Source: Leptogorgia sarmentosa
Taxonomy: Eukaryota
NCBI GenBank assembly: GCA_964658305.1
Contig: OZ210886.1
Span: 558,001-622,000 of the forward strand
DNA length: 64,000 nucleotides
Direction: 5' to 3'
Shown here: in pieces, positions 3,865-10,150 of the stretch
How the letters are laid out: each line of letters opens with the position of its first letter
Position numbering within the stretch: position 1 is the stretch's first letter
Notes under the pieces: model-generated
Told to the model about the DNA's origin: nothing
The model's database searches: none
Seen by the model: the letters and a program-made list of their open reading frames with translations, nothing else
Position numbers and translations under genes: made by a program

Positions 3865-6153
3865 TCACAGATGGTAGTAATTTTCTAGTTTCTCTTTTTC
3901 TCGTTGCTTTAATGGCCAACAGTGTTCTTGGCAGTGATCACATTTCTGATATTTCTCAACGTAACTTCGGTCACTTTTCCACCGACAATCACATTTCTCA
4001 CAATAATATTGTCCAAAGCAAGGCTCAGGACCGCTGTAGCTCAGGAACGTGACGACAAGTAATCCTTTGTTTACAGGGGCGAACTCAAGATTCCTTTCTT
4101 TGAGAAATTTCTCAACTTTTGGACGAATACTTTGTTCATTGTTTTTGCTATGATGACCAGCTCCAACAATGATCTCGAGCCAAGGCGTGTTATTCTTGAT
4201 TGCTTTATCAATATCAAAACTCTCCAAAGTTATTTCCAATTTTCGTATTGCTTCGTTACTTTCAGATCTGAATTTTTCAATGATACCATCCACCTCAGCT
4301 CGTCTTAATAAGTTTTTTTCTAATTCCTTCAGCTTCTCCAGTCTGACACCGTTACTTCGGCAGAGTGCCATGAAGTCCTTCAGTTCATGAGGGGAAAATT
4401 TTCCATTCAGTAAATCGTATTTAATATCTCGATTTCGTATACCATTAAAACTCACGCATTTTTGCAATATATTGTCAATCTCTTTGTTCATTGCCTTTCC
4501 GTGCAACATATCCACTCTCAACTGCTCCAACTTCTTCTCATTTGCAACATATAAACCATGGAGGTCTACTTCACAAACCTCTCTCTGGAAGTTGAAAAAT
4601 GCAAACAGTTCATCACAAGCGTCACGATTGTAACGATTCATTAGAGCACCGAAGTAATCTTTGAGAATTATGCAACTTTTTATGCTTTGTAATTGTGCAT
4701 TTCCTGCGAGTTTAGCAAGGATGTCAATCCTGTTCTTCCATTCCATGCGAACGGCAGCTGCATCTGAAGCTTTTCGTCGATAATATAAACCACGGAGAAG
4801 ATGTTGCACAAGCTCTTTACAAATATGGCGAGAATCAGAACGGACATTGCTTAGGTCAATCACAACATTGTCAGCTTGGATTTCATGGACAATTAGGGCA
4901 TCTTTAAGTTTCAGGACACGTGTAATGTTATTGATATGTGCAAAGCCAGAAGTAGAACCAAGTATTTCATCTCGCTTTGTATCTTTACACAACATTCCTT
5001 TAGATGTAGGCAGCAACACACAATTATCCTCATTATAAGGACGAAATTTTCCATCATCATCCCCCACTGACAATGGGATAAATACACGAGAGCTGTAAAC
5101 TAGTTCTATAAAATCAGGAATAGATTCACCATCATGCAGAGCTCTGTGACATAGTCCTTTCAATTTGTCCGATACTTCAATTTTTTCAGCATTTGGAACG
5201 CGTTGTCCATTTAAAATAAAAGCCACATCTCGGGACCAAGGTTTTTTCCCTTTTACTGTAATCTCAAAATAAATATTGCCTGCTTTTGAAACCATTCTCT
5301 TCTTCTGAATCACCTCGTTCTCGCCTGACGAAACGATATCGAGTTGAAAAGATCCATCTGTACGCCCCGAAACATCAACAATATGCAACTCAAATACACA
5401 TATATTGAGTCCATTTGCTTGATGTACTCTTTGGATTGTCATTTCAGCAGTTGAACAAGAATTGCCATTGTACCTTGCGCAAATCTTCTTGCTAATTATA
5501 AGTCTAAAGCTATTGGCATCGGGATATTTTTTAATAATAAAAAATATTGTAATGTTTTCTACATTATAAGCCTTCATACTGAAATAAAAACAACCATCTT
5601 GTAGCCTGCAATCTCGGAATTCAACACAATCATCACTTGATATTTCCACAGTGTGTTGGGAACCCAACTGGCGATATGATTCGTCTAAGATTACAGCTGC
5701 ACACATAGTCCACTCATCAACATAAATAACATCACTCTCACGCGTAAACATCGGTTTTCCTTTCGGTGAAAGCTTTGAACCAGTTTTGAACGTCTTCAAG
5801 ATATAAATTGGTTTGTCAAACTTGTGTTTCTGAGTAGTGGCGGTTCTTTCACTGCTTTTAATCGTTCCATAGGCAGCCTTTGTTGACGCACCATGTCTGG
5901 AAACGTTTTTTCGTAACAAATTAGACTTTTCATGATGTGAAATGGATGTTGCTCCAGGATCTCGGACTCTGCTTGATTGGCCATAATTTCCAGATGTTGA
6001 TGCAATATATTTCGAAGATTTGCTGTGTGAGGAATTAGTGTCTGATCCCGTTAATATGCTGTTTTCTTCATTACTTGAACTGCTGTTACTGCTCAATGTT
6101 GATGGACGAATGCACGAAGAGAAGAAGCCACGAATTCGTGACAATATTCCCAT
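3865..6153 (-). CDS. Smr-domain protein paralog A (762 aa, single ORF): DUF1771-like helix, Smr domain with insert, truncated 3CxxC zinc finger
   Basis: Motifs MNRYNRDACDELFAFFN..EVDLHGLYV, EAIRKLE, LEIIVGAGHHS and IRPKVEKFLKERNLEFAPVNKGLLVV match the DUF1771-Smr pattern. The C-terminal CFGQYYCEKCDCRWKS...QKCDHCQEHCWP matches a 3CxxC finger. Confidence 0.85.
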   Translation of the reverse strand: MGILSRIRGFFSSCIRPSTLSSNSSSSNEENSILTGSDTNSSHSKSSKYIASTSGNYGQSSRVRDPGATSISHHEKSNLLRKNVSRHGASTKAAYGTIKSSERTATTQKHKFDKPIYILKTFKTGSKLSPKGKPMFTRESDVIYVDEWTMCAAVILDESYRQLGSQHTVEISSDDCVEFRDCRLQDGCFYFSMKAYNVENITIFFIIKKYPDANSFRLIISKKICARYNGNSCSTAEMTIQRVHQANGLNICVFELHIVDVSGRTDGSFQLDIVSSGENEVIQKKRMVSKAGNIYFEITVKGKKPWSRDVAFILNGQRVPNAEKIEVSDKLKGLCHRALHDGESIPDFIELVYSSRVFIPLSVGDDDGKFRPYNEDNCVLLPTSKGMLCKDTKRDEILGSTSGFAHINNITRVLKLKDALIVHEIQADNVVIDLSNVRSDSRHICKELVQHLLRGLYYRRKASDAAAVRMEWKNRIDILAKLAGNAQLQSIKSCIILKDYFGALMNRYNRDACDELFAFFNFQREVCEVDLHGLYVANEKKLEQLRVDMLHGKAMNKEIDNILQKCVSFNGIRNRDIKYDLLNGKFSPHELKDFMALCRSNGVRLEKLKELEKNLLRRAEVDGIIEKFRSESNEAIRKLEITLESFDIDKAIKNNTPWLEIIVGAGHHSKNNEQSIRPKVEKFLKERNLEFAPVNKGLLVVTFLSYSGPEPCFGQYYCEKCDCRWKSDRSYVEKYQKCDHCQEHCWPLKQREKEKLENYYHL

Positions 6154-6931
6154 ACTATCCTATAGAAGCACTACTTGTCACTAAGCAGCTGAATCAAACT
6201 TCATAGACTCATGAGTATCATATATCATATCACGCAGTATTATCTTACGTATCATATGCAGGTCACGGTAACACAACACGAGAAACGCATGCCTCGCAGA
6301 AAAGGGAACGCAAAATGAGTCTCTTTTGTTCAAACTTTGAGAAATAGAGCACATATACGATTGTTAATTTTCATAAAAAAGTCATACAGTCACTCATATT
6401 GAAGTCAAACGGGAAAAGAAGGCAATATCAATTTTCATCGATTTACGTCATCGTTTTCAAATTATTGCGTTTCTCGAAAATTCGAGCGCAGTGTCCGGGT
6501 TTTAAGTTGCGTTTCAAAAATTTCCATTCTGGCGGCCGTTTTCAAAATTTCGCGCTTACAGTATACGTTTTCGTCGGATACATGTGGACGCTAAGCGTGA
6601 ACGCAACAAAACGTTTGCAGGTACAAATGAATCCGGGTGGACGGAGTCTTCGTCCCTTAGATACATAATCCCACGCAAAAACTATTCGCCTGCTGTGACA
6701 GATTGAAAAGATGGATGCGTGTAGCCAATGAGAAAACTATGCAAATGTCGAACAATGCGAGAACATATCAGTTTTCAGTGTTGCATATGCGCATGTGGTA
6801 CATCACTGTCCATGGCGAGTGCTATTACGTAAAACGCACTAAGAATAAATACTGGCATCAAAGGAATTGAGAAGTAAAACTGCAAAATACAACTTCATTG
6901 TGAATTTATTTTTATATATTACTAACAAAAT

Positions 6932-9900: not shown

Positions 9901-10150
9901 TACTGAGCCTTGCTTCGGAGAATATTTTTGTGAGAAATGTGACCGATGCTGGAAAAGCAGTAAAAGCTATGTTAGAAAATATCAGAAATGTTCCAAATGC
10001 AAAGCTAATTGTTGGCCAGTAAAACAACGAGAGAAAGAAAAAGTCACAAAATACCGGCGTGATGGGTCTGAAAAACGTCAGTCAAGACCTCATCAATCCA
10101 GTCTTTGTCAGAGATGTCAGGAACTAGGACGTCCTTGCAACAAGAGATGA
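6932..10150 (+). CDS. Smr-domain protein paralog B (987 aa; exons 6932-7733 and 7989-10150) with complete 3CxxC zinc finger
   Basis: Donor AAG|GTAATT at 7733/7734 and acceptor TCTTTCAG| at 7988 join the 269-aa and 701-aa ORFs in frame (phase 1). Motifs EVDLHGLLV, LEIIVGAGRHS and CFGEYFCEKCDRCWKSSKSY...QKCSKCKANCWPVKQR...PHQSSLCQRCQELGRPC are present. The N-terminus MGILDRIRKIF matches paralog A MGILSRIRGFF. Confidence 0.88.

What the first reader, a model, noticed from the sequence alone, without database searches (positions are those of the whole stretch)
3865..10150. Divergent paralog pair encoding an unfamiliar Smr-nuclease + 3CxxC zinc-finger architecture: candidate RNA-cleaving surveillance or antiviral system
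Seen: two head-to-head genes (starts 6153- and 6932+, 778 bp between them) share the same layout. Both have a similar N-terminus, a Ser/Thr-rich linker and a beta-rich middle, then HLLRGLYYRRKAS.AA.VRMEWK, MN.YNR.ACDELF.FFNFQR...EVDLHGL, LEIIVGAG.HS and IRPKVEK.LK.RNL.FAPVNKG.LVV, running directly into CFG.Y.CEKCD..WKS..SY...QKC..C...CWP.KQR. Known: DUF1771+Smr with DLHG and GxGxHS is the endonuclease module of the N4BP2/NONU-1/Cue2 group that cuts mRNA on stalled ribosomes. The Cys pattern matches the 3CxxC finger of ZCCHC24, ZAR1 and RTP proteins; RTP4 is an antiviral RNA binder and ZAR1 controls maternal mRNA. Inference: a lineage-specific nuclease fused to an RNA-recognition finger, possibly acting as a co-expressed pair. 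The conserved core and highly divergent flanks fit a fast-evolving defence or RNA-decay family. I know no characterised protein with this fusion.
Basis: partly seen in the sequence, partly recalled or inferred. Interest (0 to 1): 0.9.

Follow-up and report, generated by a model that had tools for sequence, protein, structure and literature searches.

The report
Split-Smr RNA nuclease family in corals
Two head-to-head, transcribed genes encode related proteins that join a small nuclease domain, interrupted by a 100-residue insert, to an RNA-binding-type zinc finger; relatives occur in sponges, anemones and soft corals, and the proteins likely cut RNA, possibly as an antiviral defence, which is untested.

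Summary
Gene A (6153-3865, minus, 762 aa, one exon) and gene B (6932-10150, plus, 987 aa, one 255-nt intron) are 42% identical paralogs; transcript-like contigs from 3 of 3 such runs cover both and splice B. A model of B (pLDDT 87) shows two filamin-type Ig domains, a degenerate KH fold, DUF1771, an Smr fold matching N4BP2 (Z 11.4, rmsd 1.8) that closes around a ~100-115 aa insert after DLHG, and a ZCCHC24/ZAR1-type finger. A lacks the third cysteine pair, as do 15 of 16 rows of its clade, 6 of which end in a CaaX-like box. The family is not lineage-unique: it occurs in sponges, a hydrozoan, anemones and octocorals, expanded in the last, where A- and B-type genes appear linked in other assemblies. 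It is not an N4BP2/Cue2 orthologue (no CUE or kinase seen; the catalytic-arginine position is Ala). Best reading: a likely membrane-tethered RNA endonuclease with built-in RNA selection, probably an immune effector (0.45). Catalysis, induction and A-B pairing are untested. Nine literature searches found no description of the fusion.

The parts
3865..6153 (-). Gene A, single coding exon, 762 aa (P0001)
   Evidence: ORF; unspliced contigs 3673/3776/3770 to 6199/6199/6219 in runs X4, X5, X6
6100..6153 (-). A: N-terminal Met-Gly plus Cys-containing segment, candidate lipid anchor (inferred)
   Evidence: MG start in 20 of 43 octocoral-clade rows; A's amphipathic moment unremarkable, rank 122 of 749 windows
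5164..5808 (-). A: two filamin-type Ig domains (about aa 116-330, by alignment to B)
4789..5007 (-). A: degenerate KH-like domain (about aa 383-455)
   Evidence: alignment to B and family
4579..4788 (-). A: DUF1771 / Smr N-terminal helical extension
   Evidence: homologues pass or approach the PF08590 cut-off at the aligned place
4555..4566 (-). A: DLHG, the DxH motif of Smr strand 1
4264..4545 (-). A: helical insert splitting the Smr domain
   Evidence: 4 of A's 8 listed non-synonymous variants fall here
4042..4263 (-). A: remainder of Smr domain with GAGHHS loop
3913..4020 (-). A: truncated finger, two of three cysteine pairs
   Evidence: PF17180 E 7e-4, no PF23490; same end in 6 other A-clade rows
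6154..6931 (.). 778-bp spacer between the start codons, likely a shared bidirectional promoter (inferred)
   Evidence: transcript contigs of A end at 6199-6219 and of B begin at 6621-6797; no exact NF-kB or ISRE-like match inside
6932..7733 (+). Gene B coding exon 1: Met-Gly amphipathic N-terminus and Ser/Thr-rich low-complexity region
   Evidence: amphipathic moment rank 7 of 974 windows
7734..7988 (+). Gene B intron, 255 nt, GT-AG, phase 1
   Evidence: joint in X4, X5, X6, absent in X1; restores one 987-aa frame
7989..10150 (+). Gene B coding exon 2
8102..8701 (+). B: two filamin-type Ig domains
   Evidence: TRIM3 filamin Z 9.2, Dictyostelium filamin Z 9.0, Lin-41 filamin Z 7.9; PF23616/PF00630 in longer homologues
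8879..9091 (+). B: degenerate type I KH-like domain (GEDC in place of GxxG)
   Evidence: beta-alpha-alpha-beta-beta-alpha in model; Rrp4 chains Z 7.3 and 7.2; profile tests
9092..9307 (+). B: DUF1771 / N-ext helices
9320..9331 (+). B: DLHG (DxH motif)
   Evidence: aligned to N4BP2 DLHG
9341..9667 (+). B: helical insert inside Smr; first part resembles a SAP-type four-helix bundle (tentative)
   Evidence: PIAS1 1v66 Z 6.9, 61 of 65 residues, rmsd 2.7; no Pfam support
9668..9889 (+). B: remainder of Smr domain with GAGRHS loop
   Evidence: N4BP2 Smr E 2e-4 by single sequence, 1e-12 by profile, Z 11.4
9908..10147 (+). B: complete ZCCHC24/ZAR1-type 3CxxC finger
   Evidence: PF17180 E 1e-5, PF23490 E 2e-3, PF13695 E 0.02; ZAR1 RNA-binding domain 9jko Z 8.2, 77 aligned

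Best explanation
These two transcribed paralogs belong to a sponge-and-cnidarian family that joins filamin-type Ig domains, a KH-like fold, a split Smr domain and a ZCCHC24/ZAR1-type zinc finger, and they likely act as membrane-tethered RNA endonucleases that select their own RNA targets, probably as innate immune effectors. Shown: gene structure, transcription, domain order (by model and profiles), retained DxH and GxG motifs, family range, expansion in octocorals. Inferred mechanism: the finger (helped by the KH-like fold) would grip single-stranded RNA directly next to the Smr active site, replacing the ubiquitin-reading CUE domains that bring Cue2/NONU-1 to collided ribosomes; DxH would cut it; the insert beside DxH would gate the site or add an RNA-binding surface and would fit poorly in the disome cleft used by SmrB; lipid anchors (Met-Gly/Cys N-terminus; CaaX-like ends in part of the A clade) would hold the enzyme at membranes, where RNA viruses replicate; Ig repeats of variable number would be spacers or binding platforms. 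A, with a shortened finger, would be a specialised or partner-dependent copy.
For: Smr fold reassembles around the insert, 69 of 71 residues at rmsd 1.8. DxH in 96 of 106 and G-A-G in 102 of 106 regex-selected, partly redundant family rows; Smr and finger are the most constrained parts (dN/dS 0.15 and 0.18 against 0.46 for KH and Ig2). Finger matches ZAR1's RNA-binding domain; 3CxxC fingers bind RNA in ZAR1 (PMC12799850), ZCCHC24 binds 3'UTR motifs (PMC11624195), and the finger determines antiviral activity in RTP4 (PMC12431671) (passages). Conflict-like pattern: three or more octocoral clades with several copies per contig, inserts from 32 to over 200 residues, lost or added Ig domains, swapped C-termini. 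Glover et al. propose that expanded, variable Smr families act against viral or parasitic RNA (10.1101/674358 section 11). A Nematostella gene labelled ZCCHC24-like rises log2 5.8 at 24 h and 3.5 at 48 h of poly(I:C) (PMC8476169 supplement; same gene in PMC11251625), and a gene named ZCCHC24 rises log2 4.0 with cGAMP (PMC8713801 supplement). Lipid anchoring has precedent: yeast Ypl199c is palmitoylated and at the plasma membrane (10.1101/2024.03.07.583924).
Against: No activity or induction datum exists for any family member. The induced Nematostella gene could not be tied to this family and, from its name, is more likely a stand-alone finger protein. The position of Cue2 R402 / N4BP2 R1731, needed for efficient cleavage (PMC6598757), is Ala in both genes; only the two named sponge members keep Lys/Arg. 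Nuclease activity of Ypl199c could not be reproduced. No positive selection: dN/dS 0.35 overall (one orthologue pair, crude). No exact NF-kB or ISRE-like site in the spacer. Both genes are transcribed in 3 of 3 transcript-like samples whose treatment is unknown. Neither window protein has a CaaX box or Ser at position 6 of the myristoylation consensus (consensus recalled). The KH GxxG loop is degenerate (second Gly in 5 of 77 motif-matched rows).
Confidence: 0.45

Rival explanations
1. A host mRNA decay nuclease: the finger and KH-like fold would recognise endogenous transcripts (3'UTR motifs, maternal or localised mRNA) or stalled ribosomes at membranes, and the Smr would cut them, as Cue2/NONU-1 do or as PPR-SMR proteins do by sequence.
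For: All characterised eukaryotic DxH Smr proteins in the papers read act on host RNA (PMC11806357, PMC6598757). ZCCHC24 and ZAR1 regulate host mRNA. Expression in all three samples, purifying selection, no immune promoter motifs. Ypl199c contributes weakly to nonstop decay.
Against: No CUE, UBA or kinase domain seen. The insert sits at the surface that SmrB wedges into the disome cleft (inference). Repeated duplication and architecture change are unusual for housekeeping surveillance. No bilaterian name among the named hits, though most hits are unnamed.
Confidence: 0.27
2. A catalytically weak or dead RNA sensor or scaffold: the Smr would serve as an RNA-binding platform, with Ig repeats recruiting signalling or ubiquitin-ligase partners.
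For: Ala at the catalytic-Arg position, a large insert next to DxH, DxHG drifting to DLHD/DLHY/DLHE in deeper branches and GxG lost in P0097 and P0113. B. subtilis MutS2 Smr binds without cutting. Ypl199c activity not reproduced.
Against: DxH, GxG-x-H-S and the IRP basic residue are nearly invariant across the octocoral clade; single R402A did not abolish Cue2 activity, whereas the D348/H350 double change did; ordinary small Smr proteins also carry GAG.
Confidence: 0.18
3. A DNA-directed nicking enzyme, as first reported for N4BP2 and MutS2 Smr domains, with the SAP-like insert binding DNA.
For: Smr domains nick DNA in vitro (PMC3200294); the insert's best structural match is the PIAS1 SAP-containing domain, Z 6.9.
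Against: The two flanking modules are RNA-binding types; Z 6.9 for a helical bundle is within the background the tool warns of; lipid-anchor-like termini point away from the nucleus.
Confidence: 0.06

Closest known systems
N4BP2 / NONU-1 / Cue2 (eukaryotic DUF1771-Smr endonucleases of no-go and nonstop decay)
   Same: DUF1771 followed by Smr with DxH and GxG; best sequence and structure match in the PDB.
   Different: No polynucleotide kinase or CUE/UBA domains seen; Smr split by a 100-115 aa insert; Arg of TGRG is Ala; not C-terminal but followed by a finger; preceded by Ig and KH-like domains.
Ypl199c-like and protist KH-DUF1771-Smr proteins
   Same: DUF1771-Smr without CUE; GAG loop common; KH directly upstream of DUF1771 in P0120, P0134, P0140, P0161 (Pfam KH_1 above cut-off) and in a mainly euglenozoan Atlas cluster that is the top structural neighbour of the Exaiptasia member; lipid-anchor-like termini (Ypl199c palmitoylated).
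   Different: Those are small, with intact GxxG KH and uninterrupted Smr, and lack Ig repeats and the finger. They fall outside this family in a quick tree, with long-branch warnings.
ZCCHC24, ZAR1/ZAR1L and RTP1-4 (3CxxC finger proteins)
   Same: [quoted passage not shown]
   Different: None of them carries a nuclease; gene A's finger is truncated.
ZAP with KHNYN/N4BP1 (recalled, not tested here)
   Same: Works-like analogy only: zinc-finger RNA selection, a KH-bearing endonuclease and, in ZAP-L, a CaaX membrane anchor.
   Different: Unrelated finger (CCCH) and nuclease (NYN/PIN) folds, on separate polypeptides.
PPR-SMR proteins (e.g. SOT1)
   Same: RNA-selecting module fused to an Smr endonuclease.
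   Different: PPR repeats, organellar, uninterrupted Smr.

Membership tests
Smr domain superfamily (eukaryotic DUF1771-Smr type) | IF3-C-like alpha/beta Smr fold | tested here: met
   3fau Z 11.4, rmsd 1.8, 69 of 71 aligned; MutS2 Smr Z 9.7; YdaL Z 8.3 (predicted model of B)
Smr domain superfamily (eukaryotic DUF1771-Smr type) | DxH at end of strand 1 and GxG loop | tested here: met
   DLHG and GAGxHS in both genes
Smr domain superfamily (eukaryotic DUF1771-Smr type) | DUF1771 / N-ext directly upstream | tested here: met
   Not detected by Pfam in the window proteins but above cut-off at the aligned place in homologues such as P0052, P0066, P0068, P0072; helical in model
Smr domain superfamily (eukaryotic DUF1771-Smr type) | Endonuclease activity | not testable with these tools
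   needs an assay
N4BP2/NONU-1/Cue2 family | Polynucleotide-kinase and/or CUE/UBA ubiquitin-binding domains (10.1101/674358 section 7) | tested here: not met
   No such Pfam hit at E<=1 in either gene; the modelled 720 aa of B are accounted for by other folds; B exon 1 is low-complexity and was not modelled
N4BP2/NONU-1/Cue2 family | Basic residue in the GxG loop (Cue2 R402, N4BP2 R1731) | tested here: not met
   Ala in both genes (alignment)
N4BP2/NONU-1/Cue2 family | Acts on collided ribosomes | not testable with these tools
   needs polysome and reporter assays
3CxxC finger (ZCCHC24/ZAR1/RTP) | Three cysteine pairs plus His, ZAR1-like fold (gene B) | tested here: met
   Pfam scores 25.8 and 18.7 bits are below the 27-bit cut-offs, some homologues pass
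3CxxC finger (ZCCHC24/ZAR1/RTP) | Three cysteine pairs (gene A) | tested here: not met
   Only two pairs; transcript unspliced through the stop
Type I KH domain | beta-alpha-alpha-beta-beta-alpha fold | tested here: met
   Model topology; Rrp4 chains Z 7.2-7.3, below the tool's Z 8 caution line; family profile ranks the triple-KH protein first of 59 non-family proteins, E 2e-4; hhalign E 0.008, probability only 5%, best of 8 regions
Type I KH domain | GxxG RNA-binding loop | tested here: not met
   GEDC in B, GSTS in A; second Gly in 5 of 77 motif-matched rows, 33 of 110 rows not matched
Filamin-type Ig repeat | Filamin-like Ig fold | tested here: met
   PF00630 above cut-off in P0116
SAP domain (insert) | SAP helix-extension-helix motif | tested here: inconclusive
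   Z 6.9 to 1v66 only; no Pfam SAP hit

The most novel reading that the evidence does not exclude
An ancient antiviral RNase of sponges and cnidarians that packs into one chain what mammals split between ZAP or RTP4 and a separate KH-bearing nuclease: a dsRNA/cGAMP-induced, lipid-anchored enzyme whose 3CxxC finger picks viral RNA at membranes and whose Smr site is gated by an insert that grew from nothing to over 100 residues, with octocorals running it as a linked A/B pair in which the finger-truncated A is sensor, regulator or membrane anchor for B.
Probability: 0.2. Interest if true: 0.85.

Novelty: new variant of a known kind. Interest (0 to 1): 0.62.

Why it matters
Eukaryotic Smr nucleases are known almost only as ribosome-collision enzymes; the proposal that expanded Smr families attack viral RNA (10.1101/674358) has lacked a concrete candidate. 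This family supplies one with a built-in RNA-selecting finger of the RTP4/ZAR1/ZCCHC24 kind, and it has an orthologue in a laboratory anemone (Exaiptasia, XP_028518147.1), so the idea becomes directly testable. The graded insert (0, about 8, 33-37, about 100 and more residues) inside a conserved nuclease fold is also a natural series for asking how an Smr site is gated or freed from the ribosome.

Tried and rejected
No whole genome is held, so copy number in this organism and presence of a separate N4BP2 orthologue were not checked. Single-sequence folding failed (pLDDT 37). Foldseek on PDB and viral libraries returned only generic Ig matches. ESM Atlas feature searches gave no usable hit. No relatives in viral or prokaryotic collections (40 and 18 pattern matches, 0 confirmed; single-pattern searches, limited sensitivity). 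No run was on record as RNA; X4-X6 were judged transcript-derived from splice joints here and in neighbouring genes. A downstream exon for A's third cysteine pair was sought and not found. NF-kB (3 found, 3.2 expected) and ISRE-like (13 found, 6.8 expected) patterns: none in the spacer. Supplement searches in PMC13319465 and PMC12530282 found nothing; gene identifiers of family members and NVE13026 are in no main text. Earlier scan findings: none. Both trees are quick trees, the careful search did not finish; the Z3 labels are wrong for A-type rows (regex artefact) and were not used. Rejected: pseudogene or chance ORFs; a viral or bacterial origin; N4BP2 orthology; positive selection as evidence.
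Full report
Observation. Gene A is one open frame, 6153-3865 on the minus strand, 762 aa. 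Gene B starts at 6932 on the plus strand; its first frame closes at 7741, but a GT-AG intron 7734-7988 joins it to a long frame ending at 10150, giving 987 aa. A and B exon 2 align at 42% over 650 residues, E 7e-156. Of four runs laid, X1 covers the region as unbroken DNA, while X4, X5 and X6 (three samples, one study, kind not on record) give separate contigs for A (unspliced, about 3700-6200) and B, with the 255-nt intron skipped in 3 of 3; the same runs skip GT-AG introns in neighbouring genes, so they are transcript assemblies. Both genes are therefore transcribed in the same samples. Contigs cannot give level, strand or start site.

Anatomy. Pfam alone is weak (Smr E 0.016-0.02, PF17180 E 1e-4 and 0.046, PF23490 E 0.034 in B only; all under cut-off). 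B alone finds only N4BP2 Smr among 177,635 PDB sequences (E 2e-4); a 110-sequence profile finds it at 1e-12, Ig-like S-layer domains at 1e-4 and ZAR1 at 0.14. A model of B exon 2 built on that alignment has pLDDT 87 and pTM 0.81. Against 48,161 chains it gives: residues 39-237, two filamin-type Ig domains (TRIM3 filamin Z 9.2); 300-368, a beta-alpha-alpha-beta-beta-alpha fold matching Rrp4 chains (Z 7.3); 443-633, Smr (Z 11.4, rmsd 1.8, 69 of 71 residues); 637-719, the ZAR1 RNA-binding domain (Z 8.2, rmsd 4.1, 77 aligned). The KH call is moderate: hhalign E 0.008 but probability 5%, the family profile ranks a triple-KH protein first of 59 non-family proteins, and small proteins with a clear KH directly before DUF1771-Smr exist. 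The GxxG loop is degenerate.

The split Smr. DLHG lies 100 (A) and 115 (B) residues before the EAIxKL helix; the distance is 4 in ordinary Smr proteins, 37-41 in distant cnidarian-type members and 32 to over 200 within the octocoral clade; an alignment shows none in the Oscarella member and about 8 in two unnamed members. In the model the insert is a helical unit that loops out and leaves the fold intact. Its first 60 residues resemble the PIAS1 SAP-containing bundle (Z 6.9), which I treat as a hint only. It is among the least conserved regions (0.43 mean identity against 0.78-0.80 for Smr) and holds 4 of the 8 listed non-synonymous differences in A between samples (32 further differences were not shown by the tool). 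DxH is kept; the residue between the glycines, Arg in Cue2 (R402) and N4BP2 (R1731) (PMC6598757 passages), is Ala here.

Family. A search with A's C-terminal 433 residues gave 55 proteins of 7,995 candidates scored; a filter-free search gave 132 representatives at E<=0.001, 58 at 1e-10. Named members: Paramuricea clavata and Dendronephthya gigantea (octocorals), Exaiptasia diaphana and Actinostola sp. (anemones), Hydractinia symbiolongicarpus, Sycon ciliatum and Oscarella lobularis (sponges). Most hits are unnamed, so absence from bilaterians is not shown. The window's organism is probably an octocoral (inference from the nearest named hits). Longer members carry many Ig repeats. In quick trees A and B sit in separate clades (SH-aLRT 100 and 99) inside a short-branched expansion. 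Of 16 A-clade rows, 1 keeps the third cysteine pair, 7 stop where A stops, 6 end in a CaaX-like box and 2 are truncated. Of 10 A-clade rows on contigs over 100 kb, 7 share the exact longest-contig length with a B-clade row, about four independent cases once near-identical assemblies are merged; 3 do not. This is indirect evidence of conserved linkage; orientation could not be read. Two A orthologues lack the first Ig domain. dN/dS of A against one of them is 0.35 overall, 0.15 in Smr, 0.18 in the finger, 0.46-0.47 in KH and Ig2, 0.65 in the N-terminus: purifying, not positive, selection.

Mechanism. Shown steps are the gene structure, transcription, domain order and motif conservation. Inferred steps: RNA binding by the finger (by likeness to ZAR1, ZCCHC24 and RTP4; passages in PMC12799850, PMC11624195, PMC12431671); cleavage by DxH (by likeness to Cue2 and SmrB; PMC11806357 passages); independence from collided ribosomes (no CUE; insert at the active-site face); membrane tethering (Met-Gly starts in 20 of 43 rows, nearby Cys, CaaX-like ends; Ypl199c precedent, passages of 10.1101/2024.03.07.583924); immune role (expansion and architectural turnover; Glover et al. 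section 11). Supplement rows show a Nematostella gene labelled ZCCHC24-like induced about 56-fold by poly(I:C) at 24 h and a gene named ZCCHC24 induced about 15-fold by cGAMP; I could not get its sequence, and it may be a stand-alone finger, so it supports an immune link for the finger type only. Against the reading stand the Ala for Arg, the failed Ypl199c assay, the lack of promoter motifs and of positive selection. I give 0.45 to immune RNase, 0.27 to host mRNA decay, 0.18 to a non-cutting sensor or scaffold, 0.06 to DNA nicking; about 0.7 in total that it is an active RNase.

Comparison and novelty. It is a member of the Smr superfamily and B carries a true 3CxxC finger; it is not a member of the N4BP2/NONU-1/Cue2 family by that family's defining domains. 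It works, on the best reading, like a one-chain ZAP plus KHNYN or a PPR-SMR (the ZAP/KHNYN comparison, the CaaX and myristoylation rules and the KH GxxG rule are recalled, not from a call). Nine full-text searches (listings seen) found no paper describing an Smr plus 3CxxC fusion; the NONU-1 preprint (passages and sections 7 and 11 read) lists CCCH, PWI, 2H, UIM, UBL and RING fusions but not 3CxxC, KH or Ig, though its Figure S3C is a picture I could not see and subscription journals are not covered. PMC3200294 and PMC12787238 were seen as passages; PMC8476169 (file cut when stored), PMC11251625, PMC8713801, PMC13319465 and PMC12530282 only through supplement searches. Databases label members uncharacterised, 'Smr domain-containing' or 'ZCCHC24-like'. 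Verdict: real, expressed, apparently undescribed architecture; new variant of a known kind; interest 0.62.

Noticed in passing
window 27047-27853 (-), with spliced exons to about 29300: Tectonin-domain lectin (Pfam PF19193 E 3e-66), spliced in X4-X6 with contig depth 23 in X4 against 295-450 in X6 and X5; a possible innate-immune neighbour 17 kb from the pair.
   Followed up: partly
window 30860-31770 and 32063-33332: Two arrays of a 72-bp unit (12.7 and 17.6 copies, 97% matches) in opposite orientation, each flanked outside by an ACGG/CGTC microsatellite; looks like one large palindromic mobile element, with transcript contigs that join opposite strands.
   Followed up: no
window 1751-1991: Nested palindromic 105-bp repeat, two copies, very high depth in the DNA run: MITE-like high-copy element about 1.9 kb downstream of gene A.
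   Followed up: no
window 44618-45493 (-), 62725-63663 (+), 38253-38720 (+): Forkhead gene and rhodopsin-family GPCR; an exon that by eye resembles the start of N-myristoyltransferase (recalled, no Pfam support).
   Followed up: no
proteins P0154, P0155, P0159, P0170: Stand-alone ZCCHC24-type fingers score weakly against UPF0515 (PF15135, E down to 2e-4), which I recall as the antiviral protein Shiftless; suggests the Shiftless zinc ribbon belongs to the same finger group.
   Followed up: no
proteins P0122-P0176: Many small DUF1771-Smr proteins begin Met-Gly and/or end in Cys-Cys-x-x or CaaX-like motifs, so lipid anchoring may be a general trait of the CUE-less Smr branch.
   Followed up: partly
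P0049: The sister of the octocoral expansion also lacks the third cysteine pair and ends in a CaaX-like box, possibly an independent finger-to-anchor switch.
   Followed up: no
window 16288-18810: A spliced, transcribed gene (intron about 16820-17833) with a signal-peptide-like start and no Pfam match.
   Followed up: no
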